A DNA stretch of 64,000 nucleotides from a virus (IMGVR_UViG_3300046004_001116:21920-85919), one strand, 5' to 3'. Positions 7,939 to 53,680 are shown, counted from the first letter of the stretch. Program-made: numbers and translations. Notes: a model not told the origin generated them from the letters alone.

Positions 7939-7978
7939 TGTAAAACTAAGTAAAAAGGCAAGTATATATAATAAACAA
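7939..7978 (+). promoter_or_regulatory. Putative phage promoter of tRNA operon 1 leader
   Basis: tgtaaaactaa-N12-gtatatataataaacaa, same boxes and spacing as at 12623. Confidence 0.6.
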
Positions 7979-8000: not shown

Positions 8001-8102
8001 ATGAAATCTCAAGTAATAAATATGGTCCCTGCGTATATTGCCAATCAGCCGATTGAGCAAAAGGAATCTTATTCTAAATCTGGAGATATTATATTTGAGT
8101 AA
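8001..8102 (+). CDS. Leader peptide 1 (33 aa, MKSQVINMVPAYIANQPIEQKESYSKSGDIIFE)
   Basis: A-rich start context; 26 of 33 residues are amino acids whose tRNAs lie in the downstream operon; contains TCTGGAG complementary to the terminator 5' arm. Confidence 0.8.
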   Translation: MKSQVINMVPAYIANQPIEQKESYSKSGDIIFE

Positions 8103-8127
8103 ATACACAACTATAACCAACATATCT

Positions 8128-8160
8128 AAGCTCCAGAATTAATTTTCTGGAGCTTTTTTT
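8128..8160 (+). terminator. Attenuator terminator 1
   Basis: aagctccagaa-ttaatt-ttctggagctt plus U-run; identical to 12812-12843. Confidence 0.9.
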
Positions 8161-8171
8161 ATTGCGATTAA

Positions 8172-8246
8172 TTTAACAAAACTTTAACATATAGAATTTG
8201 CTTGGTATGAAATTATTGGTTAATTTTGCTCTATAATTAAAAACAA
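8172..8246 (+). promoter_or_regulatory. Bacteroidota-type early promoter with upstream TTTAACA repeats
   Basis: TTTG-N20-TAATTTTG fits the -33/-7 consensus; element recurs about 12 times in the window. Confidence 0.7.
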
Positions 8247-8253
8247 CATTATT

Positions 8254-8406
8254 ATGGCAACAATTACAACATACAAGATTAAAGAAAAGTACAAATCACT
8301 TTTAGCTACATATGCTTGGACTAAACTTGATTTAAACGGATCTTATTCTAAAGAAGATTGGAATAAAGCTGGTTTTAAAGATTCTGTCTTAGATATTAAT
8401 TGTTAA
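8254..8406 (+). CDS. Small hypothetical protein (50 aa)
   Basis: ATG just after promoter, open to TAA. Confidence 0.55.
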   Translation: MATITTYKIKEKYKSLLATYAWTKLDLNGSYSKEDWNKAGFKDSVLDINC

Positions 8407-8771
8407 TAACTTTATGAATAAAAGTTTGCATTAGTCAATTTAATTGGTTAATTTTAACTAACAATAAAAATTTAATTATCATGTCTATACAAAATCGAAA
8501 GTTAATCAGAAGCATATACGGAATCCACGGTCTAATCAATATTTTAAGTGGGTTTGACGTAAACGGAAATAATTGTTAAAATTTCATTTAGCTTCGGCTA
8601 AGTATTATTCGTGGTACCAGGCGGGCAGTAGGGGTTACCGAATTAAAACAAACAAGAATGGTGAAATATGGGCTGGCCAGGCAACATAAAGTAACAACGA
8701 CGCTCAGCGGTATCAATTCAAAACCTCCTCGTGGTGATACTGGAAACTTGATTCGTCAAGGCTAATTTGAA

Positions 8772-8783
8772 GTTCATTGACAT
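8772..8783 (+). promoter_or_regulatory. boxA-like antitermination site
   Basis: gttcattgacat, about 14 nt before the first tRNA; counterpart at 12941. Confidence 0.55.
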
Positions 8784-8796
8784 AGTGATAACATTT

Positions 8797-8871
8797 ACGA
8801 GATTAGCTCAGTTGGTTCAGAGCAACTCTTTTACACGGAGAAGGTCACAGGTTCGAATCCTGTATCTCGTA
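8797..8871 (+). tRNA. tRNA-Val(TAC)
   Basis: Cloverleaf; anticodon loop tttacac. Confidence 0.9.
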
Positions 8872-9074
8872 CTAATGAATTAAACGGTCTAAGGATTAGG
8901 ACGCTGGCGTAAGGCACCGGCTGAAACGCCGACCATCGTTGGAGAGATTCTACTCTCTAATTCATAACACACTGCAGTGATTGCCGGCCACACGCATCGG
9001 TTCTTAACGGGAAATCGTTCTCGTCGTTAGGTGAACAGACCGGACAAATTCCTTAGGTGGTGCTAGGGTCAACT

Positions 9075-9148
9075 GCTGCTATAGACGAATTGGTTAAGTC
9101 GTCGCCCTTTCAAGGCGGAGGTTGCGGGTTCAAGTCCCGTTGGCAGTA
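9075..9148 (+). tRNA. tRNA-Glu(TTC)
   Basis: Cloverleaf; loop ctttcaa. Confidence 0.9.
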
Positions 9149-9153
9149 CAACA

Positions 9154-9230
9154 TGAGCGCTGAAGCACAATCGGACGTGCACCTGGCATACGGCCAGTAG
9201 GATATAGGTTCGAATCCTATCTTTGCTCCA
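9154..9230 (+). ncRNA. Degenerate tRNA-like RNA
   Basis: Good T-arm and 3' CCA; imperfect acceptor stem; non-canonical loop catacgg. Confidence 0.5.
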
Positions 9231-9237
9231 AATACTT

Positions 9238-9311
9238 TCTCCTGTCGTCTAGTCGGCTCAGGACGCTGCCCTTTCACGGCGGTAACGCGGGTTCGAATCC
9301 CGTCGGGAGAA
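9238..9311 (+). tRNA. tRNA-Glu(TTC)
   Basis: Cloverleaf; loop ctttcac. Confidence 0.9.
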
Positions 9312-9413
9312 CAACACTACCGAATGGTGTAATCTATGTGTTAAAAGAACAGCGCTGGCTGAGACCAGAGTTCCACCGTAATTGTAGTAATCGGTGATTC
9401 GGTAAACAATATT

Positions 9414-9485
9414 GGTTTCGTAGCTCAGAGGCAGAGCGGCACCCTGTTAAGGTGAGGGTCGGGATTTCGATATTCCCCGAGACCG
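9414..9485 (+). tRNA. tRNA-Asn(GTT)
   Basis: Cloverleaf; loop ctgttaa; variant T-arm. Confidence 0.85.
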
Positions 9486-9497
9486 CAATTAAAAAAT

Positions 9498-9666
9498 AGC
9501 TTTCAGCCAAAGGTGGCGGGCAATACTTTTACTCAGTTATGTATGGACTGTCTTAGACGTAAGGTGGAAAATCATAAAGGTTTAAATAGGATATGACTCT
9601 GATTGTCGACGAGATGAGAGTATCTGATAAGTATCGCTGGGTGGGTTCGATTCCCATTGTGAGCTC
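9498..9666 (+). ncRNA. tRNA-shaped RNA with about 110 nt inserted in place of the anticodon loop
   Basis: Paired ends agctttca/tgtgagct, D-like hairpin, T-arm gtggg-ttcgatt-cccat. Confidence 0.5.
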
Positions 9667-9671
9667 AAGAT

Positions 9672-9745
9672 TCCTCAGTAGCTCAGTTGGTTAGAGCGTC
9701 GGACTGTTAATCCGTAGGTCCTAGGTTCGAGTCCTAGCTGGGGAG
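9672..9745 (+). tRNA. tRNA-Asn(GTT)
   Basis: Canonical cloverleaf. Confidence 0.95.
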
Positions 9746-9749
9746 CAAA

Positions 9750-9892
9750 AGTTGATTACTTTAGGTTACAGGAATTACCAGAAACCTGTCGACATACTCT
9801 TGGGCGTAAGGCAAGAGCAGATTTTGAACCAGGTTTAATCTGTAATGTAAACCTACTCGTATTTAACAATTATACGTTAAGTCTAATCAACT
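9750..9892 (+). ncRNA. Unknown multi-hairpin structured RNA
   Basis: Ends agttgatta/taatcaact pair; internal hairpins acagg/cctgt, ctcttg/caagag, cagatt/aatctg. Confidence 0.55.
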
Positions 9893-9903
9893 AAATTGTA
9901 ACT

Positions 9904-9989
9904 GGCCTTGTAGCTCAATTGGATTGCATTACGCTTAGAGCCACCGACTTTTAATCGGTAGGTTGGGGGTTCGAGTCCCTCCAGGGTCA
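9904..9989 (+). tRNA. tRNA-Lys(TTT) with enlarged D-loop
   Basis: Loop cttttaa; about 12 extra nt in the D-loop. Confidence 0.85.
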
Positions 9990-10087
9990 CAAAGGAATAA
10001 TTACTCTGGCGGTGGTGCGGGTAAGCGCCGGGAAGTAACGCCCGGTTGGCAAAGTAAATTATTCAGAGGTAAGGAAAAGACTAAACT

Positions 10088-10160
10088 GGGGCTATGGTAT
10101 AGATGGCTAACACACTTGCCTTGCACGCAGGAATCCCGAGTTCGAGGCTCGGTAGCTCCA
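10088..10160 (+). tRNA. tRNA-Ala(TGC)
   Basis: GGGGCTA acceptor with G3-U70; loop cttgcac. Confidence 0.9.
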
Positions 10161-10417
10161 CGGGAGTTTTTGAAACGGCCTACTCTTTGAGGCACGTGAT
10201 ATTTGTACTTTAACAAAATTCACAGTATGGCAAGAGGGTTTTTGGAAGCGGCTTTAAGGTATAAGCAATGTATTTGACCAGAACAAAATCATAGTATAAC
10301 TATCTTCTGTCACGTTAGCAGACCGGGTATGGCTACGCACAGTTTGGAAGTAATATGTGTATTAAACAAAACTTTCACCGCGGCGAAACGTTTCCCAAAA
10401 CAAAGTAGTCGCAAGAA

Positions 10418-10502
10418 GGGAGTACGCCGGAGTTGGAGAGCCGGAGCGGTCTGTAACACCGTTGGCATTACGCCTGAGTAGGTTCGAATCCTACTACTTT
10501 CA
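10418..10502 (+). tRNA. tRNA-Tyr(GTA)
   Basis: Loop ctgtaac; long variable arm. Confidence 0.85.
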
Positions 10503-10509
10503 CAAAAAT

Positions 10510-10586
10510 TGAAGCGGAGGTAAGAGTTACATCAACTTTTTATTGGAAAAAACAAACAAACACTCTTCCTAATATTCTCAATTTCA
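10510..10586 (+). ncRNA. Short Y-RNA-like element
   Basis: GAAGCGG..AGAGTTACATC..CTCTT..TAATATTCTC motif shared with RNAs next to the Ro60 gene. Confidence 0.65.
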
Positions 10587-10587
10587 T

Positions 10588-10658
10588 TGTCCGATGGTGT
10601 AACGGTAACACTACTGTTTTTGGTGCAGTCATTCAAGGTTCGAATCCTTGTCGGATAA
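10588..10658 (+). tRNA. tRNA-Gln(TTG)
   Basis: Cloverleaf; loop ttttggt. Confidence 0.9.
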
Positions 10659-10667
10659 CTATTATAT

Positions 10668-10740
10668 TGGAATATGGTATAATGGCTCATTACACGTGGT
10701 TTTGGTCCACGCAATCAAGGTTCGATTCCTTGTATTCCAA
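10668..10740 (+). tRNA. tRNA-Gln(TTG)
   Basis: Cloverleaf; loop ttttggt. Confidence 0.9.
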
Positions 10741-10745
10741 CAATT

Positions 10746-10820
10746 CGCGTAGCGATCCACAGAGAGAGGTTACCCGCCTTGGACGCGGGGTTATTGCAGG
10801 TTCGAGTCCTGTCTACGCGA
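10746..10820 (+). tRNA. tRNA-Pro(TGG), atypical D-arm
   Basis: Loop cttggac; good acceptor and T arms. Confidence 0.75.
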
Positions 10821-10831
10821 CAAATTTTTAA

Positions 10832-10904
10832 CGGGGTGTAGATCAGTTGGTAGATCGCGTGCTTTGGGAGCATGAGGCCGCAGGTTCGAGTCCTGTCACC
10901 CCGA
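10832..10904 (+). tRNA. tRNA-Pro(TGG)
   Basis: Canonical cloverleaf. Confidence 0.95.
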
Positions 10905-10970
10905 CGAGACGAGACTGTTACTAATTCATAGGGGCCCATTCACGCAAGTGTCTGCATAGAATTAGAATTT

Positions 10971-11044
10971 AGGTGGTTAGCTCAACTGGTTAGAGCACTC
11001 GCCTGATACGCGAGAGGTTATGAGTTCGACTCTCATATCACCTA
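10971..11044 (+). tRNA. tRNA-Ile(GAT)
   Basis: Loop ctgatac. Confidence 0.9.
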
Positions 11045-11112
11045 CTAAAAAATATAAAAGTCAAATGAAACAAATTTTAGTCAACTCCTCATAGGTTAGC
11101 ATTGCTAAACTT

Positions 11113-11343
11113 ATGACTCAGAAATTGAGAATTTGGAGAGTAGTTCCCGTTCGTAACGGCGTTCAGGCTCCCACTTTTTTTGTAGAAACTACAGAAGAAG
11201 GACGCGACAAGGCAGAAGTATCTGCTTTAAAACAAGCAAGACAAAGGTCAGGCTTGAGTAAATTTGATTGTTGGAATTTCAATCTTATCAAAACAGAATT
11301 AAGGTTAGATAAGTTTGGAAGATATGTAAAGTATCACCAATAA
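11113..11343 (+). CDS. Hypothetical protein within tRNA operon
   Basis: 76-aa ORF in an inter-tRNA gap. Confidence 0.6.
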   Translation: MTQKLRIWRVVPVRNGVQAPTFFVETTEEGRDKAEVSALKQARQRSGLSKFDCWNFNLIKTELRLDKFGRYVKYHQ

Positions 11344-11389
11344 TAAACTGGGCAGTTTTCGGTCTGCGTAATAATTAAAACCGAAATTT

Positions 11390-11461
11390 GGTGATGTAGC
11401 TCAGCGGCAGAGCACCCGGCTCATATCCGGAAGGTCGAGGTCTCGGAATCCTCCATCGCTA
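11390..11461 (+). tRNA. tRNA-Met(CAT), variant T-loop
   Basis: Loop ctcatat. Confidence 0.8.
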
Positions 11462-11465
11462 CAAA

Positions 11466-11524
11466 TGTATACTTTAATATACAATATGGTCTAAAACGGC
11501 TATAATTGTATATTAAAGTATACA
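11466..11524. repeat. Perfect 20-bp inverted repeat
   Basis: tgtatactttaatatacaat ... attgtatattaaagtataca. Confidence 0.9.
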
Positions 11525-11535
11525 AACAATAAATT

Positions 11536-11672
11536 CCAGAAGCGGCAAAGAGAGTTACTTCGTCTGTTAAACGAGAGGTCGTAGGTTCGAGTCCTACTGC
11601 GTGTACCTTGATGGGAAACGTATAGCTCAGTTGGTTAGAGCGCTAAAAATCTCTCTCTTAATTATTCTCTGG
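11536..11672 (+). ncRNA. yrlA: YrlA-type Y RNA with circularly permuted tRNA domain
   Basis: Terminal ccaga/tctgg stem with GAAGCGG; T-arm, then closed acceptor-like stem, then D-arm. Confidence 0.8.
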
Positions 11673-11678
11673 CAATTT

Positions 11679-11752
11679 GACTCGGTAGCTCAGTTGGTAG
11701 TAGCACCTCACTTTTAATGAGGGGGTCGTGGGTTCGAGTCCCACCCGGGTCA
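11679..11752 (+). tRNA. tRNA-Lys(TTT)
   Basis: Canonical cloverleaf. Confidence 0.9.
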
Positions 11753-11766
11753 CAAATATTAATCAT

Positions 11767-11844
11767 GGGAGCAGCTGGGATAGCGCGGGTGGTGTCGAGC
11801 CACCTTTCACCGGTAGCTTGAGGTTCGAGTCCTCTTTGTTCCCC
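11767..11844 (+). ncRNA. Degenerate tRNA-like RNA
   Basis: Acceptor gggagca/tgttccc and T-arm present; non-canonical loop tgtcgag. Confidence 0.5.
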
Positions 11845-11858
11845 TAAATGTTATCAGT

Positions 11859-12110
11859 ATGACACGAGAACAGAAAATAGCAAAAAGGAAACTTCGTGCT
11901 TCTATCCACAGAGAAAAAAGAAACGAAAAGTACTTTAAAAAAATACGAGCGGCAAATGATATAGGCGGGTGGGTTCCACTTTATGCCGTTGATAGCCGTG
12001 GATACGTTTCAGGTTCATGGCCTGACTCAAGTAGCCCTACAGGATATTCACAAAGATGTTCTTATGATGCCTGGGGAACTTGTCAAAGTCCATGCAACGG
12101 AGACTGTTAA
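11859..12110 (+). CDS. Hypothetical Cys-tailed protein
   Basis: 83-aa ORF in an inter-tRNA gap. Confidence 0.6.
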   Translation: MTREQKIAKRKLRASIHREKRNEKYFKKIRAANDIGGWVPLYAVDSRGYVSGSWPDSSSPTGYSQRCSYDAWGTCQSPCNGDC

Positions 12111-12114
12111 AAAT

Positions 12115-12173
12115 TGGGAGGTCGCATAGTTGGTTAGTGCTCATCTTCGGTGGTTCGAGTCCACCCCTCCCCA
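12115..12173 (+). ncRNA. Mini-tRNA lacking the anticodon arm
   Basis: Acceptor, D and T arms intact; only 8 nt (tcatcttc) between D and T arms. Confidence 0.65.
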
Positions 12174-12175
12174 CT

Positions 12176-12359
12176 AAGATTTAATCTGCTAAACGCAAAA
12201 TGGTATGTTGCCGCCGATAACTACGGAAACACAAGCAAGGAAGGAGGTCACTTGCCGCATACAGGAAACACAGATCCGTTCATTTTGTTAGTAAGGTATC
12301 GGGTACATTCGGTTGTACTTGGGTATTCACCAATCTGTGCCGGTGACAGATTAAATTTT
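12176..12359 (+). ncRNA. Unknown structured RNA
   Basis: 13-bp terminal stem aagatttaatctg/cagattaaatttt with internal hairpins. Confidence 0.5.
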
Positions 12360-12362
12360 TAT

Positions 12363-12436
12363 GGCCATGTAACTCAGTTGGTTAGAGTGCCCGCCTCATA
12401 AGCGGAGAGTCCTTGGTTCGAGTCCAAGCTTGGCCA
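12363..12436 (+). tRNA. tRNA with CAT anticodon (Met or lysidine-type Ile2)
   Basis: Loop ctcataa; lacks the initiator GGG/CCC anticodon stem. Confidence 0.85.
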
Positions 12437-12622
12437 CATGAAAACGCAAGTAACGGTATTATTCCGAAGCGATGATAAGAATTACAATTGGTCATCAGTA
12501 TTATCTAAAGAAGTAGGATATGAATTTGTTAAACTACAGAAAATAGAGAACACGGATAATCCAAGATGGCCAAAATGGTCTTTTATCATTACTTACAAAA
12601 AAAGTAAATAAAAATGCAAAAG

Positions 12623-12663
12623 TGTAAAACTAACCGTTTTCACGTGTATATATAATAAACAAC
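12623..12663 (+). promoter_or_regulatory. Putative phage promoter of tRNA operon 2 leader
   Basis: tgtaaaactaa-N12-gtatatataataaacaa, as at 7939. Confidence 0.6.
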
Positions 12664-12677
12664 AAATAAATTAAACA

Positions 12678-12785
12678 ATGCAAACACAATCATTACATAC
12701 AAGATCGTTTACGTCAAGCTGGAACTTATGTTTCGGACTAGGGCGCGATTGTGACATAGATCTGGAGGATCTGACTACTATCTAA
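12678..12785 (+). CDS. Leader peptide 2 (35 aa, MQTQSLHTRSFTSSWNLCFGLGRDCDIDLEDLTTI)
   Basis: 28 of 35 residues are amino acids whose tRNAs lie in the downstream operon; TCTGGAG at 12761. Confidence 0.8.
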   Translation: MQTQSLHTRSFTSSWNLCFGLGRDCDIDLEDLTTI

Positions 12786-12810
12786 TGTAATTTGCATACA
12801 AGATATTTTC

Positions 12811-12843
12811 AAAGCTCCAGAATTAATTTTCTGGAGCTTTTTT
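12811..12843 (+). terminator. Attenuator terminator 2
   Basis: Same hairpin as 8128-8160, plus U-run. Confidence 0.9.
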
Positions 12844-12854
12844 ATTGCGATTAA

Positions 12855-12930
12855 TTTAACAAAACTTTAACATATTAAATTTGCTTTACATCTTTTAATT
12901 GGTTAATTTTATACTGTAATTAAAAACAAC
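12855..12930 (+). promoter_or_regulatory. Bacteroidota-type early promoter
   Basis: tttaacaaaactttaaca ... TTTG-N20-TAATTTTA. Confidence 0.65.
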
Positions 12931-12940
12931 CATTAATTGC

Positions 12941-12952
12941 ATTCTTTGACAT
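12941..12952 (+). promoter_or_regulatory. boxA-like antitermination site
   Basis: attctttgacat just before tRNA-Phe. Confidence 0.6.
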
Positions 12953-12968
12953 ACTGAAAACTAAAATT

Positions 12969-13041
12969 GGTGCTGTGGCAGATCAGGTGATTGCGGCGGA
13001 CTGAAAATCCGTAGGAGTGGGTTCGATACCCACCGGCACCA
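12969..13041 (+). tRNA. tRNA-Phe(GAA)
   Basis: Loop ctgaaaa. Confidence 0.9.
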
Positions 13042-13156
13042 CACAAACTTATTTAAGGTTCGACCCTCACCCATTTTGCGCTCAATTCGCATTTACTTTG
13101 GAAGACTGGTTCTAGAGGGAGCTACCGACTGATAAGTGGCCGCACACGCGGCAAAT

Positions 13157-13231
13157 GCCTGAGTGGGTAAACTGGTAAAGCCGCTTGACTTAGGATCAAG
13201 AGTTCTGTGGGTTCGACTCCCACCTCGGGTA
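13157..13231 (+). tRNA. tRNA-Leu(TAG) with short variable region
   Basis: Loop cttagga; only 6 nt variable region. Confidence 0.85.
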
Positions 13232-13315
13232 CAAATTATTTAGTTCCATGCATAAGCTCAAACAGCTCCCTGAAATTACATGGTTTAAAGGAGCTTAAAC
13301 TAAATAATAAATTTT

Positions 13316-13392
13316 GGTGCCGCAGCATATCGGCGTATGATGCTCGCCTGTCACGTGGGAGATTGCGGGTTCGAATCCCGTCGGTACCGCCA
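13316..13392 (+). tRNA. tRNA-Asp(GTC)
   Basis: Loop ctgtcac; encoded CCA; weak D-arm. Confidence 0.8.
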
Positions 13393-13432
13393 TCTGGTTA
13401 AGATTCCAGAGAACAATCAAAAATCTACAAAC

Positions 13433-13506
13433 ACCCTCATGGTCCAGTTGGAGTGGATGTCGCCCTGTCACGGCGAAGATCGCGGGTTCGAGTCCCGCTG
13501 GGGGTG
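13433..13506 (+). tRNA. tRNA-Asp(GTC)
   Basis: Loop ctgtcac. Confidence 0.9.
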
Positions 13507-13612
13507 CAAAAAACTGGGGTAGAAAAATCTTAGGACGGCAATCCGTAGATGTAATACGATGGTTACTGCACAAAGAGAAAAGTAATTTGCCGATGAAATT
13601 CACTTAGCAGTT

Positions 13613-13700
13613 TTCCTTTTGATGAAATTGGCAAACATGGCTCGCGCGAAGCGAGTGCTCAGGGTTTACTCTGATAAAGGTTCGAGTCCTTTAAGGGAAA
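13613..13700 (+). tRNA. Type II tRNA-like gene, anticodon uncertain (CGA/Ser with G33?)
   Basis: Full cloverleaf with long variable arm; loop cgcgaag lacks U33. Confidence 0.5.
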
Positions 13701-13750
13701 CAAATTTCAGGAGTAATTAACCTGAAGCTGAATGGTTCGAAACATTCGAT

Positions 13751-13860
13751 TGGTCATGGTGTATTGGGCACGGTAGAACGGAGTAATCGTACGCAGAGCG
13801 TTAGGCTCTCAACGGCGGTGAAAGGGAAAACAGGTTAAAGGTTCGAATCCTTAGGATCAG
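13751..13860 (+). ncRNA. tRNA-like RNA with substituted central domain
   Basis: D-like start and T-arm aaggttcgaatcctt; no anticodon arm. Confidence 0.4.
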
Positions 13861-13862
13861 CT

Positions 13863-13933
13863 TGCGTTAAAGTGTAAAGGTTGCATGGGACTCTCATAAG
13901 GTCTACGGGGTGGTTCGAGTCCACGCTACGCTA
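13863..13933 (+). tRNA. Degenerate tRNA with CAT anticodon
   Basis: Loop ctcataa; mismatched acceptor stem. Confidence 0.5.
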
Positions 13934-14020
13934 CAAAATTCTAAGTGTGTCTTGGTACGCTCTGACAACCGTCAACGACAAGGTCTCGGTAGGCAAAACG
14001 CGTTTGATCCTACCCATTCT

Positions 14021-14094
14021 GCAGTAGTAGCTCAGTTGGTAGAGCGCTGCCTTGCCAAGGCAGAGGTTCGCGGGTTCGAATCCCGTCTACTGCT
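14021..14094 (+). tRNA. tRNA-Gly(GCC)
   Basis: Loop ttgccaa. Confidence 0.95.
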
Positions 14095-14101
14095 CAAATA
14101 T

Positions 14102-14175
14102 GCGGGTATGGTGTTTAACGGTTAGCACGTGAGCCTTCCAAGTTTGAAGTTTCGGTTCGAATCCGAATATCCGCT
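14102..14175 (+). tRNA. tRNA-Gly(TCC)
   Basis: Loop cttccaa. Confidence 0.9.
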
Positions 14176-14180
14176 CAACT

Positions 14181-14254
14181 GGTCTTGTAGCTCAACTGGA
14201 TAGAGCATTGGTTTTCTAAACCAACGGTTATGGGTTCGATTCCCGTCAAGATCA
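14181..14254 (+). tRNA. tRNA-Arg(TCT)
   Basis: Loop tttctaa. Confidence 0.9.
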
Positions 14255-14261
14255 CAAACAT

Positions 14262-14332
14262 ACGCCTATGGTGCAACGGTAGCATGACGGTCTCCAAAAC
14301 CGTTGATAAAGGTTCGAATCCTTTTGGGCGTG
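14262..14332 (+). tRNA. tRNA-Trp(CCA)
   Basis: Loop ctccaaa. Confidence 0.95.
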
Positions 14333-14341
14333 CAAATATAA

Positions 14342-14428
14342 GGAGAGGTGCCAGAGTGGTCGATTGGACCGGTCTTGAAAACCGGAGAGCGTGAAAGCGC
14401 TCCGTGGGTTCGAATCCCACCCTCTCTT
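14342..14428 (+). tRNA. tRNA-Ser(TGA)
   Basis: Loop cttgaaa; long variable arm. Confidence 0.9.
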
Positions 14429-14431
14429 CAA

Positions 14432-14579
14432 AATTAGAAGCGGTACATTGAGATACTTCAATATCCAAAACTGCCATTTGTTGGTTCGAGTCCAACCTGA
14501 GGTGTTAATAGCACCTCGGTGGTGAAATGGTAAACACAGCAGTCCCAAAACAAGACGCTCATGTAAACATTCTCTAATT
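14432..14579 (+). ncRNA. yrlA: Second YrlA-type Y RNA
   Basis: aattaga/tctaatt stem with GAAGCGG; T-arm, closed acceptor gaggtg/cacctc, then D-arm. Confidence 0.8.
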
Positions 14580-14584
14580 GAATT

Positions 14585-14658
14585 GCTGGCGACGCATGAA
14601 TGGTGGTGCACCGGATTTGTAACCCGGACTAGAGTCGGTTCGATCCCGACCGTCAGCT
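14585..14658 (+). tRNA. tRNA-Thr(TGT)
   Basis: Loop tttgtaa. Confidence 0.85.
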
Positions 14659-14664
14659 CAAAAT

Positions 14665-14735
14665 GGCCCTATGACCGAGCGGTTAGGTGCAGGTCTGCAA
14701 AATCTGTTAGGTTGGTTCGACTCCAACTGGTGCCT
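14665..14735 (+). tRNA. tRNA-Cys(GCA)
   Basis: Loop ctgcaaa. Confidence 0.9.
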
Positions 14736-14738
14736 CGA

Positions 14739-14934
14739 GAATAATCAGAGGACTCATCGCTGGAAACAGAGGAAGTTCGCGACAACTAAACCTAACATGG
14801 GAGATGTAAAAATCGTTCGTACCACGGAAGTTGCAAGTTAAACAGTTTGAGGGTGTCGGTTTCCCTATGAGAACGGGTTAATGCAAAGTCAAATGATGGG
14901 ATAAAACAGAAACGCGGCTACGCTCAATTATTCA
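14739..14934 (+). ncRNA. rnpB: Reduced RNase P RNA (about 196 nt)
   Basis: P1 gaataat/attattc; P4 strands GAGGAAGTTCGCG and AACAGAAACGCGGCTA resemble conserved regions I and V. Confidence 0.75.
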
Positions 14935-14938
14935 AATT

Positions 14939-15020
14939 GCCCAGGTGGAGAAATTGGTAGACTCGCCAGCCTAAGGAGCTGGTGCCGCAAGGCGTGAGGG
15001 TTCGAGTCCCTCCTTGGGTA
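14939..15020 (+). tRNA. tRNA-Leu(AAG)
   Basis: ccagc-ctaagga-gctgg; long variable arm. Confidence 0.85.
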
Positions 15021-15032
15021 CAAAATTAAAAT

Positions 15033-15121
15033 GGGCCGATTGGTGTAACTGGGAATGAATACCAGCTTGGGTTAACACGAACCTGTAGGTTCGGCTGAGA
15101 GTTCGAATCTCTCATCGGTCC
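15033..15121 (+). ncRNA. tRNA-like RNA with 8-bp acceptor and no clear anticodon arm
   Basis: gggccgat/atcggtcc; T-arm gagag-ttcgaat-ctctc. Confidence 0.5.
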
Positions 15122-15238
15122 CGGTATCTCCCAAGGGAGAAAACTCTGGTTGGTGGTCTGACCTTATAGACCGCAATAAGACTGTCAAGGTAGGACGTCA
15201 GTTATAGAGAGGTGAGCCATACCTATTCCTCTCAACAT

Positions 15239-15313
15239 GGTGATTGTAGCTCAGTTGGTTAGAGCGCTGGTTTGTGGTACCAGAGGTCGCGGGTTCGACC
15301 CCCGTCATTCACC
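15239..15313 (+). tRNA. tRNA-His(GTG)
   Basis: G-1:C73 pair; loop ttgtggt. Confidence 0.9.
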
Positions 15314-15328
15314 CTAAAAAGAATACTT

Positions 15329-15478
15329 ATGAAAGGCATTGAATTAATTCCAATTGGGCCTGTTTCTGAAGAAGCAAAGGCTAGGTTAAAGAAACGATCT
15401 GAAAGGGATAAAGCAAGATTAGACCAAATGGTTAAAGACGCTAAAGAAGGCAAGTATGATCATATAATAAACAAATAG
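15329..15478 (+). CDS. Small hypothetical protein
   Basis: ATG at 15329 downstream of tRNA-His, 49 aa. Confidence 0.5.
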   Translation: MKGIELIPIGPVSEEAKARLKKRSERDKARLDQMVKDAKEGKYDHIINK

Positions 15479-15483
15479 AAAGC

Positions 15484-15705
15484 ATGAAAGCGGGAGCTAA
15501 AACAACAGACAAAGATTTTAATAACTTAATTACATACTTGGAAAGATTCAAAGGTGCTAATATTACAATCACTGTTGATAAAAATCCTTCGCCTGAAAAG
15601 ATTGCTTATATAAAAGAAAGAATAAAGATAAGTGAGCAACGTGCTCAAAACGGCCGGGTGGTGGAACTGGTAGACACGCTGGGTTTAAGCCCCAGTGGGC
15701 AGTAA
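15484..15705 (+). CDS. Small hypothetical protein (3' end overlaps tRNA-Leu)
   Basis: ORF track. Confidence 0.4.
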   Translation: MKAGAKTTDKDFNNLITYLERFKGANITITVDKNPSPEKIAYIKERIKISEQRAQNGRVVELVDTLGLSPSGQ

Positions 15706-15737
15706 TGCCCGTGCGGGTTCGAATCCCGCTCTGGTCA
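15652..15737 (+). tRNA. tRNA-Leu(TAA)
   Basis: Loop tttaagc; long variable arm. Confidence 0.9.
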
Positions 15738-15741
15738 CAAA

Positions 15742-15827
15742 GGAGAGGTAAGCATAGTGGTACTGCAGCGGATTGCTAATCCGTTCGGCGTTTATTCGTC
15801 GCGTGGGTTCGATCCCCACTCTCTCCG
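15742..15827 (+). tRNA. tRNA-Ser(GCT)
   Basis: Loop ttgctaa; long variable arm. Confidence 0.9.
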
Positions 15828-15846
15828 CAATATATAATAAAACAAT

Positions 15847-15918
15847 GGCCTGTTAGTTTAACGGATAGAACTCTGGTTTACGGCATCAGCGATGGGGGTT
15901 CGAGTCCCTCACGGGTCA
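15847..15918 (+). tRNA. tRNA-Arg(ACG)
   Basis: Loop ttacggc. Confidence 0.85.
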
Positions 15919-15942
15919 CTAATCAAATAAAAAACAAATGTC

Positions 15943-16395
15943 ATGGTATTTAGAAAGCTCGCAGATAGGCAGGAAGTTGACTTATTACCATACGCACATG
16001 ATTTCCTAACGGAACATCCAGAGCATAAACTCTACGTGGGTACGGATAGTCAAAACATCGGAAAAACTACAGTTTATGCAACAGTTATTGTGTTTCATAA
16101 TAACAACGGTGGTGGTCACGTTTTATATTCTAAGGTAACAGTACCTAGAATCGCGGACAGATGGACCAGATTGTGGAAAGAAGTAGAAATGTCAGTTCAA
16201 GCAGCTGACCTTTTAAAAGAAGGAGATTTTCATCCGGTAGATTTTATTGACTTGGATTTAAACCCAGACCCAAGATACAAATCGAATATGGTCTTAAGAT
16301 CAGCTGTTGGTTATGTTGAGAGTTTTGGTTACAAAGCAAGAGTAAAACCGAATGCGACTATTGCATCTTGTGTTGCAGATAGTATCTTCCGTTAA
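15943..16395 (+). CDS. RNase H-like YkuK (DUF458) family protein
   Basis: YVGTDSQ, RLWKEVEMS, IDLDLN, ASCVAD pattern. Confidence 0.75.
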   Translation: MVFRKLADRQEVDLLPYAHDFLTEHPEHKLYVGTDSQNIGKTTVYATVIVFHNNNGGGHVLYSKVTVPRIADRWTRLWKEVEMSVQAADLLKEGDFHPVDFIDLDLNPDPRYKSNMVLRSAVGYVESFGYKARVKPNATIASCVADSIFR

Positions 16396-16488
16396 GAACT
16401 ATTATATAAGAAGTGAATATATAATCTATAATACTTTGGGGTGTAAAAGCCCCAAATATTTTTACTAACTAAAATAAAACAAAAAAAC

Positions 16489-18970: not shown

Positions 18971-20593
18971 ATGAGCAGATTAACACCTTATTCAGACAAA
19001 AGAACAGCTACATCTAATGAAGCTTATTCTACCGTAGTGGAAAACTACATGGGCGGAAACTCTTTTAACGTTTCTCCGCTTGCAACTCTTAAAATTGTAA
19101 CCGCAAGTTCAATCTTTGGAGAACCAAGATATTACCAAGACGGTATAGGATCTTCTAAAACTATTAAGAATCATTCAACTCTTATGGAGTATGATATCTT
19201 TAGTGATGGGGTGAAAGATAACCGAAGTGTAGTGGATGTATTTACTTCTGCAATTGACAATGCATTAGACTTTGACTTCAAAGCAACATTGGATTTTGCA
19301 TTAGAACTACGTACAGAATACTTCATGCGTCTTAACCCAGCGGTTATCTTTGTTCGTGCTTCACAGCATCCAAACAGAGTTGCGTTTAATGAAGCTAATC
19401 CAGGCTACATGAAATCTATCGGAAAAGCAATCGCTTTAAGACCTGATGACGTAACAAACCAATTGGATTACTACATGTTCTTAAACGGTTCTAAGAAAGG
19501 TTTGCCTTCTTTACTTAAAAGAACTTGGGCTGATACTCTTGAGTCATTCTCTAGATATCAATTAAACAAATATAAAGGTAAAAGTCTTATTGACCTTGTA
19601 AGAATCTCACACGCAAGTAACGATGATATTACTGAGTTAATGAAGACAGGAACAATTAAAGTTACATCATCTGAACAAACTTGGGAAAGTTTAAAGAGTG
19701 CTGGAAAAACTTGGGTTGAGATTCTTGACACAATTAAAGTTCCTCACATGGCTCTTTTAAGAAACCTTCGTGGAATCTTTACAGAAATCAATGATGCGGC
19801 TATTGCGGCTAAAGTTCTTGAGCAATTGGAATCTGGTGTTTTATACGGAAAGCAATTTCCTTTTAGATACTGGAGTGCTTTTAAAGCAATTCAATCCGCG
19901 GACGTTAATCACTCTGGATTAATTAAAGACAGTCTTGAAAAATGTATGGACCTTGCGGTTGCTAACATGCCAAAACTTGACGGTCGAGTAATGTCTCTTT
20001 GTGATAACTCAGGTTCTGCTTGGGGATCTCTTAATTCAGAATACGGTTCTGTTACAGTGGCAGAGATTGCCAACTTGTCAGCAATCATTACTGCACAACA
20101 ATCTGCGGAAGGTTATGTAGGAGTATTTGGTGACAGACTTAAAACTCGTTCTATCTCTAAAAGAAATGGTCTTTTAACTCAGTTAAATGAATCAAACACT
20201 GAAGGAAGAGGAATTGGTGGAGGAACTGAAAACGGAATTTGGTTATTCTGGGATAAAGCAATCAAGGATAAACAACACTGGGACACCGTGTTTATCTATT
20301 CTGATATGCAAGCAGGTCACGGAAACCTTTACGGCACAAACGAAAGAGACTATGCAGAGTTTGCGCACAAACGTTCTAACCGATACATTGATGTACTTGC
20401 ATTAGTGGAAAAATATAGAAAAACTGTTAATCCAAAAGTTAACGTTTTCTCAGTACAAGTTGCTGGGTACGATAATACAGTACTTCCTGAAAACTTATAC
20501 CGTGGTGCAATCTTAGCAGGGTGGACGGGTAAAGAATGTCACTATGCCGACGCTGTTATAAAAGCTTGGAATGAAATAGAGAATCAAAAATAA
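18971..20593 (+). CDS. rsr: Ro60/TROVE-domain RNA-binding protein with vWA domain
   Basis: MALLRNLR, QFPFRYWSA, DNSGS MIDAS motif, GGGTE, IYSDMQ; flanked by Y RNAs. Confidence 0.9.
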   Translation: MSRLTPYSDKRTATSNEAYSTVVENYMGGNSFNVSPLATLKIVTASSIFGEPRYYQDGIGSSKTIKNHSTLMEYDIFSDGVKDNRSVVDVFTSAIDNALDFDFKATLDFALELRTEYFMRLNPAVIFVRASQHPNRVAFNEANPGYMKSIGKAIALRPDDVTNQLDYYMFLNGSKKGLPSLLKRTWADTLESFSRYQLNKYKGKSLIDLVRISHASNDDITELMKTGTIKVTSSEQTWESLKSAGKTWVEILDTIKVPHMALLRNLRGIFTEINDAAIAAKVLEQLESGVLYGKQFPFRYWSAFKAIQSADVNHSGLIKDSLEKCMDLAVANMPKLDGRVMSLCDNSGSAWGSLNSEYGSVTVAEIANLSAIITAQQSAEGYVGVFGDRLKTRSISKRNGLLTQLNESNTEGRGIGGGTENGIWLFWDKAIKDKQHWDTVFIYSDMQAGHGNLYGTNERDYAEFAHKRSNRYIDVLALVEKYRKTVNPKVNVFSVQVAGYDNTVLPENLYRGAILAGWTGKECHYADAVIKAWNEIENQK

Positions 20594-24159: not shown

Positions 24160-24232
24160 TGCGGGGTAGAGCAGTTGGTAGCTCAGTGGGCTCATAACCC
24201 AAAGGTCGCAGGTTCGAGTCCTGCCCCCGCTA
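24160..24232 (+). tRNA. Initiator tRNA-fMet(CAT)
   Basis: Unpaired 1-72, GGG/CCC anticodon stem, loop ctcataa. Confidence 0.9.
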
Positions 24233-24251
24233 CTAACTTAAATTATTAAAA

Positions 24252-43593: not shown

Positions 43594-43682
43594 AATTGTT
43601 AATAACTTTAGACCCACAAATTTTTATTTGTGGGTTTTTTGTATTAATTTTAACTATCAATATAAAACTATACACTATATGA
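43593..43682 (+). repeat. Terminator/promoter cassette duplicated at 53594-53684
   Basis: About 90 bp near-identical; cccacaaa..tttgtggg hairpin with U-run overlapping a TTTG/TAATTTTA promoter. Confidence 0.85.
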
Positions 43683-53590: not shown

Positions 53591-53680
53591 CAGAAAATTG
53601 TTAATAACTTTAGTCCCACAAATTTTTATTTGTGGGTTTTTTGTATTAATTTTAACTATCAATATAAAACTATACACAAT

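What the first reader, a model, noticed from the sequence alone, without database searches (positions are those of the whole stretch)
8001..12785. Leader peptides sample synonymous codons, suggesting isoacceptor-level surveillance
Seen: leader 1 uses V GTA/GTC, P CCT/CCG, A GCG/GCC, Q CAA/CAG, E GAG/GAA, K AAA/AAG and I ATA/ATT. Leader 2 uses T ACA/ACG/ACT, S TCA/TCG/AGC, L TTA/CTA/CTG, R AGA/CGC, F TTT/TTC, G GGA/GGG and D GAT/GAC. Neighbouring genes favour A/T-ending codons, so this spread looks selected. Inference: the leaders probe most host isoacceptors, not just amino-acid supply.
Basis: partly seen in the sequence, partly recalled or inferred. Interest (0 to 1): 0.7.

Follow-up and report, generated by a model that had tools for sequence, protein, structure and literature searches.

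The report
Codon-tuned leader peptides before phage tRNA operons
Two tiny leader genes in front of a phage's two tRNA operons choose their synonymous codons non-randomly, in a way that fits a sensor of individual tRNA species, although RNA folding explains part of the pattern.

Summary
The codon lists are correct and the contig's genes do prefer A/T-ending codons (GC3 0.23). In this window alone, codon diversity is only marginally above chance (38 distinct codons vs 33.6, P 0.04). Rare-codon use is clearer (12 vs 4.7, P 0.001).

The two ORFs are leader peptides of attenuators before two tRNA operons of a jumbo-phage fragment. Related cassettes occur in many related phages. Pooled over 16 leaders, the bias is confined to four-codon boxes: T-ending 40 vs 93 expected, G 47 vs 12.5, C 31 vs 16.5, A unchanged. 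NNY boxes match genome usage. T-avoidance is specific to amino acids whose tRNA lies downstream (16/129 vs 23/60, P 8e-5). Synonymous sites drift far less than in neighbouring genes.

So codon choice is selected and tied to decoding. A census of host isoacceptors is not shown:
- The G excess sits at predicted paired bases.
- Y-ending codons do not track Y-reading tRNAs in the block.
- The closest relative lost three codon pairs.

Earlier notes of this scan made the same point on this same stretch. I saw none on other DNA.

The parts
7942..7972 (+). Promoter-like motif A, copy 1 (AAAACTAA, 12 nt, GTATATATAAT) upstream of leader 1
   Evidence: There are only two exact copies in the 85.9-kb contig, one before each leader. 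The same motif stands before the leader in L007. Promoter function is inferred.
8001..8102 (+). Leader peptide 1 (33 codons). Codons 2-22 use almost only the ten amino acids whose tRNAs form block 1.
   Evidence: 20 of 21 residues are in the block-1 set (Fisher P 2e-8 against leader 2). The ORF has the same length in relative L105.
8040..8058 (+). Hairpin inside leader 1 (GCCAAUC / GAUUGAGC). It holds four of the leader's seven G/C-ending regulatory codons (GCC, CAG, CCG, GAG).
   Evidence: Predicted. One compensatory pair change separates it from L105 (AAT/ATT swapped with ATT/AAT at codons 15 and 18).
8079..8085 (+). Antiterminator strand 1 (TCTGGAG), a copy of the terminator's 3' arm, 15 nt before the stop codon
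   Evidence: It pairs with 7 of 9 bases of the terminator's 5' arm in the MFE of the nascent RNA. It is conserved between the two leaders in different reading frames.
8130..8160 (+). Intrinsic terminator 1 (9-bp stem, 6-nt loop, T run)
   Evidence: -14.5 kcal/mol. Two copies in the window against 0 expected.
8155..8247 (+). Copy of a repeated promoter-like element B between terminator 1 and the tRNAs
   Evidence: Repeat families D1 and D3: 11 and 6 copies in the window, mostly just before start codons. Function is inferred.
8797..12437 (+). tRNA block 1: Val, Glu x2, Val, Asn x2, Ile-like, Lys-like, Ala, Tyr, Gln x2, Pro x2, Ile, Met(CAT), Lys, Met(CAT)
12626..12656 (+). Promoter-like motif A, copy 2
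12678..12785 (+). Leader peptide 2 (35 codons), made mostly of the ten amino acids of block 2
   Evidence: 23 of 27 residues at positions 2-28 are in the block-2 set. 104 of 108 nt are identical in L105.
12712..12745 (+). Two-tier hairpin inside leader 2. It contains ACG, AGC, AAC, TTC, GGG and CGC.
   Evidence: Predicted, and kept in L105. There is no compensatory change, so support is weak.
12761..12767 (+). Antiterminator strand 2 (TCTGGAG), 16 nt before the stop codon
12814..12843 (+). Intrinsic terminator 2, with a stem identical to terminator 1
12838..12930 (+). Promoter-like element B copy between terminator 2 and tRNA-Phe
   Evidence: D3, 85% identical to the copy at 8155-8247.
12969..15919 (+). 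tRNA block 2: Phe, Leu(TAG), Asp x2, Ser(CGA), Gly(GCC), Gly(TCC), Arg(TCT), Trp, Ser(TGA), Thr(TGT), Cys, Leu(AAG), His, Leu(TAA), Ser(GCT), Arg(ACG)
   Evidence: Thr is found only at the lowered ARAGORN threshold and as a 38.8-bit Rfam match.

Best explanation
The two ORFs are leader peptides of ribosome-dependent transcription attenuators in front of two tRNA operons of a jumbo-phage fragment.

How the attenuator works. The 3' part of each leader carries a copy of the terminator's 3' arm. If that copy is free, it pairs with the terminator's 5' arm and lets RNA polymerase read on into the tRNA genes. A ribosome that reaches the stop codon covers it, and the terminator forms. A ribosome held up earlier, at a codon whose tRNA is short, leaves it free.

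How codon choice fits in. Synonymous codon choice at the regulatory codons is under selection tied to decoding. In four-codon boxes the leaders avoid the genome's favourite T-ending codon, which standard wobble rules let more than one tRNA class read. They spread over A-, G- and C-ending codons instead. A stall can then report shortage of particular tRNA species rather than of an amino acid. Part of the G/C-ending excess serves RNA helices instead: a hairpin inside each leader and the antiterminator.

Shown: the anatomy, its covariation across lineages, the codon statistics, and the restricted synonymous drift.
Inferred: translation of the leaders, stalling, read-through, and which tRNA reads which codon in the unknown host.
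For: Anatomy.
- Each leader lists the amino acids of its own block.
- In 10 of 11 cassettes from several lineages, which carry at least seven different terminator stems, the terminator's 5' arm pairs in the nascent-RNA MFE with a leader segment 3-17 nt before the stop codon.
- In relatives the first tRNA starts 12-38 nt after the terminator.

Codon level.
- Rare codons: 12 vs 4.7 in the window (P 0.001), 56 vs 21.2 in 8 leaders, 50 vs 23.0 in 9 further leaders.
- Box-specific bias over 16 leaders. Four-codon boxes: A 72/67.9, C 31/16.5, G 47/12.5, T 40/93.1 (P 6e-30). NNR boxes: G 41/29.8 (P 0.02). NNY boxes: C 35/36.5 (P 0.77). Ile: no bias.
- T-ending codons are 16 of 129 at regulated amino acids against 23 of 60 at non-regulated ones in the same leaders (P 8.5e-5).
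- In this window, T-ending codons are 3 of 20 regulated four-box codons (10.3 expected, P 0.0008) against 4 of 5 non-regulated ones.
- At third positions predicted unpaired, A is 23 vs 13.4 and T is 7 vs 18.4 (P 0.002).
- Block anticodons with a readable codon in the leader: 82 of 85 vs 73.6 (P 0.0001) and 57 of 62 vs 52.5 (P 0.02).

Synonymous drift.
- Among four related phages, leaders differ at 0-11% of conserved degenerate codons. Genes inside the same tRNA regions differ at 23-32%, and genes near the capsid gene at 20-36%. L094 vs L095: 1 of 67, P 7e-7.
- Window vs L105: 5 of 50 against 811 of 2919 in 14 ORFs (P 0.002).
- Of 11 third-position differences at four-box codons that I read by eye, one involves T.
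Against: - G-ending excess is concentrated at predicted paired third positions (25 vs 3.9) and nearly absent at unpaired ones (4 vs 2.6). That classification is partly circular, because G/C bases are more readily predicted as paired.
- G is also enriched at non-regulated codons (15 vs 3.6).
- A compensatory change supports the hairpin that holds four of leader 1's G/C-ending codons.
- Y-ending codons do not follow the presence of a G34/A34 tRNA in the block (16/47 vs 24/79, P 0.70).
- Leader 1 of this window is no better matched to its block's anticodons than chance (19/24 vs 19.6).
- L105 lost the V, P and E codon pairs.
- In cassette 2 the non-coding parts are 94-100% identical to L105. Synonymous conservation there cannot be credited to codons.
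- In this window and in L105 a promoter-like element B lies between terminator and tRNAs. Part of tRNA transcription may therefore bypass the attenuator.
- One candidate leader (L085) shows no bias.
- Leaders from related phages are not fully independent samples.
Confidence: 0.5

Rival explanations
1. RNA structure only. The G/C-ending codons are there to build the hairpin inside each leader and the antiterminator. Codon identity as seen by tRNAs plays no part.
For: - G is 25 vs 3.9 and C is 9 vs 3.7 at predicted paired third positions, with no G excess at unpaired ones.
- There is a compensatory pair change in the leader-1 hairpin between the window and L105.
- G is enriched at non-regulated codons too.
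- The whole of cassette 2, non-coding parts included, is 94-100% conserved.
Against: - There is no C excess in NNY boxes (35 vs 36.5) and only a weak G excess in NNR boxes.
- A-ending codons are not depleted overall (72 vs 67.9), while T-ending ones are halved.
- T-avoidance holds at unpaired positions (7 vs 18.4).
- T-avoidance is specific to regulated amino acids (P 8.5e-5).
- Gly and Ala codons swap places between L090 and L092 while the same codon types are kept.
Confidence: 0.15
2. Sensitivity tuning by rarity. Leaders use rare, slowly read codons so that one or two codons per amino acid suffice to stall the ribosome. No census of isoacceptors is intended.
For: - The rare-codon excess is strong and replicated.
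- There is precedent. Codon bias in attenuation leaders was first explained by rare codons, with the leu leader as the example. Replacing its CUA codons by CUG reduced sensitivity (passages of PMC1183508 read, citing Carter et al., which I did not see).
Against: - The common A-ending codons are kept or enriched at regulated amino acids (56 vs 45.4). Only the T-ending common codon is avoided.
- Rarer NNC codons are not preferred in NNY boxes.
- The same paper calls the rare-codon explanation an oversimplification.
Confidence: 0.2
3. Feedback on the phage's own tRNAs. Leader codons are chosen to be read by exactly the anticodons encoded in the downstream block, which are mostly U34 tRNAs. The operon would shut off once its own products accumulate.
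For: - Leader codons readable by block tRNAs under strict wobble: 169 of 189 vs 153.4 (P 0.0001) and 130 of 151 vs 122.6 (P 0.025).
- Anticodon coverage: 82 of 85 and 57 of 62 (same calls).
- In the window, leader 2 has TCA, TCG and AGC for Ser(TGA, CGA, GCT), and AGA and CGC for Arg(TCT, ACG).
Against: - Y-ending codons are as frequent where the block has only U/C34 tRNAs (24/79) as where it has a G/A34 tRNA (16/47).
- GCC occurs in the window's leader 1 and in the L105, L007, L090, L092 and L142 leaders, although every Ala tRNA listed in the printed blocks is Ala(TGC).
- Gly(GCC) of block 2 has no GGC or GGT codon in leader 2 of this window. Leu(AAG) has no CTT or CTC; only CTA could serve it, and only if A34 is deaminated to inosine. 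Counted by inosine-style wobble, as, leader 2 covers 15 of 16 block-2 anticodons.
- Leader 1 is at chance (19/24 vs 19.6).
Confidence: 0.2
4. Chance or relaxed selection. These are short ORFs with unselected codon usage.
For: In this window alone the count of distinct codons is only marginally high (P 0.04). Leader 1 taken whole is unremarkable (distinct 20 vs 20.3).
Against: - The bias is replicated in two sets of leaders.
- It runs against the AT-rich background.
- It is confined to one class of codon box and to regulated amino acids.
- Synonymous sites are conserved well below the gene background.
Confidence: 0.02

Closest known systems
Leader-peptide (ribosome-mediated) transcription attenuators of amino-acid operons (trp, his, leu, thr, pheA, ilv)
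   Same: A short leader ORF with regulatory codons, an intrinsic terminator, and an alternative antiterminator whose formation depends on where the ribosome sits.
   Different: - The regulated genes are tRNA genes of a phage, not biosynthetic enzymes.
- Each leader lists about ten different amino acids once to three times instead of a run of one amino acid.
- I see only two alternative helices plus one internal hairpin, not the classical 1:2, 2:3, 3:4 scheme.
- Seven full-text searches found no paper describing leader-peptide attenuation of phage tRNA arrays. Subscription journals and paper supplements were not searchable.
[quoted passage not shown]
   Same: Synonymous choice in a leader is selected according to which tRNA isoacceptor reads the codon (passages of PMC1183508). 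Here too, codon choice departs from genome usage only where isoacceptors differ.
   Different: Classical leaders repeat one chosen codon. These leaders spread over A-, G- and C-ending codons and avoid T-ending ones. The quantity sensed would be tRNA supply as such, not amino-acid supply; that is inference.
T-box riboswitches
   Same: A leader RNA that senses a specific tRNA and controls a downstream terminator.
   Different: T-boxes bind uncharged tRNA directly and need no translation. No T-box match appears in the Rfam scans (window at gathering score; 8100-16400 at E up to 1). Here the sensing element is an ORF.
Phage tRNA arrays as replacements for host tRNAs lost to degradation or to tRNA-cleaving defence systems
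   Same: A near-complete phage tRNA set. The literature links viral tRNAs to rescue from tRNA-targeting immunity (abstract of PMC12409363 seen in the listing).
   Different: Those reports, as far as I saw, concern what the tRNAs do and not how their expression is controlled. A demand-driven switch upstream of the arrays is the new element.

Membership tests
Ribosome-mediated transcription attenuation (leader-peptide attenuators) | Short ORF immediately upstream of the regulated genes, kept open in relatives | tested here: met
   Leaders of 33 and 35 codons. L105 has the same lengths, with 12 and 2 amino-acid changes and no frameshift. Related leaders occur in many lineages.
Ribosome-mediated transcription attenuation (leader-peptide attenuators) | Regulatory codons cognate to what the operon supplies | tested here: met
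   Leader 1 residues 2-22: 20 of 21 in the block-1 set. Leader 2 residues 2-28: 23 of 27 in the block-2 set (Fisher P 2e-8). In all 15 leader-block pairs listed, at least 10 of 11 block amino acids are present in the leader.
Ribosome-mediated transcription attenuation (leader-peptide attenuators) | Intrinsic terminator between leader and regulated genes | tested here: met
   9-bp stem plus T run at 8130-8160 and 12814-12843.
Ribosome-mediated transcription attenuation (leader-peptide attenuators) | Mutually exclusive antiterminator that a ribosome at the end of the leader would mask | tested here: met
   In 10 of 11 cassettes the terminator's 5' arm pairs with a leader segment 3-17 nt before the stop codon. 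The segment changes together with the terminator sequence across lineages. The exception is L105 leader 1.
Ribosome-mediated transcription attenuation (leader-peptide attenuators) | The regulated genes are transcribed through the attenuator | tested here: inconclusive
   In the window and in L105 a copy of the repeated promoter-like element B lies between terminator and tRNAs. In other relatives the first tRNA follows the terminator by 12-38 nt. Laid RNA-library contigs cannot show transcript ends.
Ribosome-mediated transcription attenuation (leader-peptide attenuators) | Read-through rises when the cognate charged tRNA is short | not testable with these tools
   This needs a reporter, term-seq or ribosome profiling.
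Isoacceptor-selected regulatory codons (as in the leu leader) | Codon usage at regulatory codons departs from genome usage | tested here: met
Isoacceptor-selected regulatory codons (as in the leu leader) | One synonymous codon, read by the most sensitive isoacceptor, is used repeatedly | tested here: not met
   Regulated four-box codons are spread A 56, G 32, C 25, T 16 of 129. In the window, 15 of 17 repeated amino acids use at least two codons.
Isoacceptor-selected regulatory codons (as in the leu leader) | Synonymous replacement changes regulation | not testable with these tools
   Needs an experiment.
T-box riboswitch | Match to the T-box covariance model (specifier loop, T-box sequence) | tested here: not met
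   No T-box match appears among the Rfam hits.

The most novel reading that the evidence does not exclude
The leaders act as a codon-resolved census of the tRNA pool. For each amino acid the operon serves, the leader carries the codons that are each read by essentially one tRNA class: NNA by U34, NNC by G34, and NNG by C34 with U34. It avoids NNT, which several classes can read. Loss of any single tRNA species, for example to a host anticodon nuclease or to phage-induced tRNA turnover, would then stall the ribosome and switch on the very operon that carries the replacement tRNAs. That would be an on-demand counter-defence circuit, widespread in a clade of freshwater jumbo phages.
Probability: 0.3. 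Interest if true: 0.85.

Novelty: new variant of a known kind. Interest (0 to 1): 0.65.

Why it matters
Phage tRNA arrays are usually discussed as codon-usage helpers or as spare parts against tRNA-cleaving defences. How their expression is controlled is hardly known.

The leaders list the amino acids of the operon behind them, and their codon choice is selected only where tRNA species differ. That would make the ribosome itself the sensor that turns the arrays on. It would extend leader-peptide attenuation from amino-acid supply to tRNA supply.

It also gives a direct test. Synonymous recoding of a 100-nt leader should change which tRNA losses induce the operon. The many natural variants found here, each matched to a different tRNA block, provide ready-made comparison material.

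Tried and rejected
Searches that led nowhere.
- blastn of both cassettes against the phage collection gave no match.
- The exact terminator sequence in viral contigs gave none.
- The promoter-A pattern in viral contigs gave 4 loci. Three are one unrelated phage gene promoter (L081, L083, L084). The fourth is the L007 contig already found.

Relatives without the cassette.
- The records of two relatives with about 80% capsid-protein identity to the window's (G001, G002) carry only a small array, with a different candidate leader (L085/L086). That candidate shows no codon bias: rare codons 5 vs 3.5, distinct codons 20 vs 21.4. I kept it in the 8-leader pool and left it out.
- L097 (His-only block) was left out.
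- L091, L093, L094, L095, L105 and L114 were left out of the pooled codon counts as near-duplicates of L090, L092, the window and L110.

A test that failed. If leader codons tracked block anticodons at full resolution, Y-ending codons should be commoner where the block has a G34/A34 tRNA. They are not (16/47 vs 24/79, P 0.70).

Rare-codon preference as the sole explanation is rejected, because A-ending common codons are retained.

Sequencing runs. 20 of 23 listed runs hold part of the stretch, 5 of them RNA libraries. All four runs I laid are kept as contigs, so they show no transcript ends, levels or strand. One 572-nt contig of an RNA library spans 12302-12873. This says nothing about termination, and DNA carry-over cannot be excluded. 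Variation inside the leaders could not be read, because only 40 of 354 differences were listed.

Not attempted:
- Whether one of the two CAT-anticodon tRNAs of block 1 is a lysidine-type tRNA-Ile that would read the leader's ATA codons. I had no reference set.
- The host's identity and its tRNA genes.

Supplements of papers were closed and were not needed for any claim here.

Full report
WHAT IS THERE. The window is the last 64 kb of an 85.9-kb, 35.5% G+C virus contig. Its capsid protein has up to 86% identical relatives on freshwater metagenome contigs and in 200-430-kb phage records, so the contig is probably a fragment of a jumbo phage.

Between 8797 and 15919 lie about 36 tRNA genes on the + strand, in two blocks. 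Block 1 serves V, E, N, I, K, A, Y, Q, P and M. Block 2 serves F, L, D, S, G, R, W, T, C and H.

Each block is preceded by the same cassette, in this order:
- a promoter-like motif found only twice in the contig;
- a short ORF;
- about 28 nt of spacer;
- an identical 9-bp terminator with a T run;
- a copy of a promoter-like element that recurs about 11 times in the window.

THE OBSERVATION. The contig's 79 long ORFs have GC3 0.23, with GCC, GTC, TCG, ACG, CTG, CGC and GGG each at 0.07 or less of their family. I resampled synonymous codons from that usage, both leaders together:
- distinct codons 38 vs 33.6 (P 0.039);
- repeated amino acids with at least two codons, 15 of 17 vs 11.8 (P 0.054);
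- rare codons 12 vs 4.7 (P 0.001);
- likelihood P 0.0002.

The signal sits in codons 1-22 of leader 1 and is absent from its 11-codon tail. Against real gene windows, leader 1 is in the 4% tail and leader 2 in the 0.5% tail. In this window alone, then, diversity is marginal and the departure from genome usage is moderate.

WHAT THE ORFS ARE. Residues 2-22 of leader 1 are 20 of 21 from the block-1 set. Residues 2-28 of leader 2 are 23 of 27 from the block-2 set (Fisher P 2e-8).

Both leaders contain TCTGGAG 15-16 nt before the stop codon, in different reading frames. This is the 3' arm of the terminator. In the MFE of the nascent RNA it pairs with the terminator's 5' arm.

Related cassettes stand before tRNA blocks in many relatives:
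- L105, the closest, has both leaders.
- L007 has one 48-codon leader with all 20 amino acids.
- The L090/L091/L094/L095 group and L092 each have two leaders.
- L110/L114, L142, L099, L100, L102, L087, L104 and L098 have one each.
- L097 has a 23-residue leader with five His before two tRNA-His genes.

In all of them the leader's amino acids follow the block behind it. For example, F, W, G and R sit in the first block of the L090 group and appear in its first leader. In 10 of 11 cassettes examined, the terminator's 5' arm pairs with a leader segment 3-17 nt before the stop, although the terminator sequences differ.

This is the anatomy of ribosome-dependent attenuation. Translation, stalling and read-through are inferred. 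Seven literature searches found no description of such control of phage tRNA arrays.

IS CODON CHOICE SELECTED? In a first set of 8 leaders, each tested against its own phage's usage, rare codons are 56 vs 21.2 and G/C-ending codons 88 vs 58.5 (0 of 20000 resamplings reach either). Distinct codons are 192 vs 179.0 (P 0.006). In a second set of 9 leaders from other lineages, rare codons are 50 vs 23.0 and distinct codons 198 vs 178.8 (0 of 20000).

The bias depends on the kind of codon box (16 leaders):
- Four-codon boxes: A 72 vs 67.9, C 31 vs 16.5, G 47 vs 12.5, T 40 vs 93.1 (P 6e-30).
- NNR boxes: G 41 vs 29.8 (P 0.02).
- NNY boxes: C 35 vs 36.5 (P 0.77).
- Ile: as expected.

NNY boxes, which a single tRNA reads, serve as an internal negative control.

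Within four-codon boxes, T-ending codons are 16 of 129 at amino acids whose tRNA lies in the block. They are 23 of 60 at other amino acids of the same leaders (P 8.5e-5). In this window the figures are 3 of 20 (10.3 expected, P 0.0008) against 4 of 5. The four TCT serine codons of leader 1, whose block has no tRNA-Ser, illustrate the contrast.

HOMOLOGUES. Among L090, L091, L094 and L095, conserved degenerate codons differ at 20-36% in genes near the capsid gene and at 23-32% in ORFs inside the tRNA regions. In the leaders they differ at 0-11%. L094 vs L095 is 1 of 67 (P 7e-7).

Window vs L105: 811 of 2919 in 14 ORFs, against 2 of 31 in leader 2 and 3 of 19 in leader 1. Together that is 5 of 50 (P 0.002). 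Free synonymous drift is therefore excluded.

Two cautions apply. The non-coding parts of cassette 2 are 94-100% identical too, so the constraint there need not be on codons. And L105 leader 1 has lost the V, P and E codon pairs, while five of five amino-acid replacements in its first 22 codons stay inside the block-1 set.

Between more distant leaders the peptide changes at about half its positions. The Gly (GGC/GGG) and Ala (GCC/GCA) codons swap places between L090 and L092. Of 11 four-box third-position differences that I read by eye, one involves T.

WHAT THE BIAS MEANS.
For a link to tRNAs:
- Block anticodons with a readable codon in the leader number 82 of 85 vs 73.6 (P 0.0001).
- Leader codons readable by block tRNAs under strict wobble number 169 of 189 vs 153.4 (P 0.0001).
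- Both are replicated more weakly: 57 of 62 vs 52.5 and 130 of 151 vs 122.6 (P about 0.02).
- In the window, leader 2 has one codon for each Ser and each Arg tRNA of block 2.

Against a strict match:
- Y-ending codons are no commoner where the block has a Y-reading tRNA (16/47 vs 24/79).
- GCC recurs in six leaders, although the blocks carry only Ala(TGC).
- Leader 1 of the window is at chance (19/24 vs 19.6).

For RNA structure:
- G is 25 vs 3.9 at predicted paired third positions and 4 vs 2.6 at unpaired ones. This split is partly circular.
- The leader-1 hairpin, which holds GCC, CAG, CCG and GAG, has a compensatory change in L105.

Against structure alone:
- At unpaired positions A is 23 vs 13.4 and T is 7 vs 18.4 (P 0.002).
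- A is not depleted overall.
- NNY boxes show no C excess.
- T-avoidance is limited to regulated amino acids.

My reading is that two forces act. RNA helices account for much of the G excess. A decoding-related force removes T-ending codons from regulated four-codon boxes and spreads them over A, G and C.

By the standard wobble rules (established knowledge, not tested here), NNA is read by U34 tRNAs, NNC by G34 tRNAs, and NNG by C34 and U34 tRNAs. NNT can be read by G34, modified U34 and I34 tRNAs. Avoiding NNT is what a probe of single tRNA classes would do.

COMPARISON WITH WHAT IS KNOWN. The mechanism works like the classical leader-peptide attenuators. Codon choice by isoacceptor in leaders has precedent (PMC1183508, passages read). 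What is new is the target (phage tRNA operons), the multi-amino-acid leaders matched to each block, and a spread of codons instead of one repeated codon. It is not a T-box.

VERDICT. I rate it a new variant of a known kind, with interest 0.65.

Noticed in passing
L097 (reverse strand) 9259-9333: A 23-residue leader with five His (MKKMNHFIHYLRIYLHILFSIHVH), followed by a terminator and, 12 nt later, two tRNA-His genes. It is a his-type leader placed before tRNA-His rather than before biosynthetic genes.
   Followed up: partly
window 8710-8772: Weak match to the HDV-like ribozyme family RF02682 (33.1 bits, gathering score 44, E 0.003), ending 25 nt before the first tRNA of block 1. It may be a processing element or a chance match.
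   Followed up: no
window 11536-11675 and 18971-20593: A weak Y-RNA-like (YrlA, RF02553) match inside the tRNA array (34.3 bits, gathering score 69). A 540-aa protein downstream matches PHROG 850 'RNA-binding protein' (E 5e-43).
   Followed up: partly
window 8254-8406 and 8481-8579: Two small ORFs (50 and 32 aa), each behind its own copy of promoter-like element B, lie between terminator 1 and tRNA-Val. This roughly 510-nt insert is absent from the close relative L105, where tRNA-Val follows the terminator by 129 nt.
   Followed up: no
window 9904-9989, 9596-9666, 12121-12175: Odd tRNA-like genes in the array: an 86-nt tRNA (Rfam 58 bits) with extra bases, for which ARAGORN gives conflicting anticodons; a low-scoring Ile(GAT)-like gene; and a stretch with tRNA acceptor and T arms but apparently no anticodon arm.
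   Followed up: no
window 24160-24233: A third CAT-anticodon tRNA lies 8 kb beyond the array, outside both leader-controlled blocks. Whether it is the initiator was not tested.
   Followed up: no
window, 11 copies (e.g. 8400-8472, 43596-43668, 53598-53670): A roughly 73-93-nt promoter-like element (TTGTTAATAAC or TTTAACAAAAC, then AATTTGC, then TTGGTTAATTTTAAC) recurs before many genes. Its TTG and TTTG pieces recall Bacteroidota-type promoters; that consensus is from memory, not from a call.
   Followed up: no
L011 30-330: In a relative, a tRNA-Ala(TGC)-like gene appears to be interrupted after the start of its T arm by about 230 nt of structured-looking sequence. This could be an intron or an insertion.
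   Followed up: no
window 55242-55391: A tandem duplication of a 75-nt unit (73% identical) inside a coding region (family D13).
   Followed up: no
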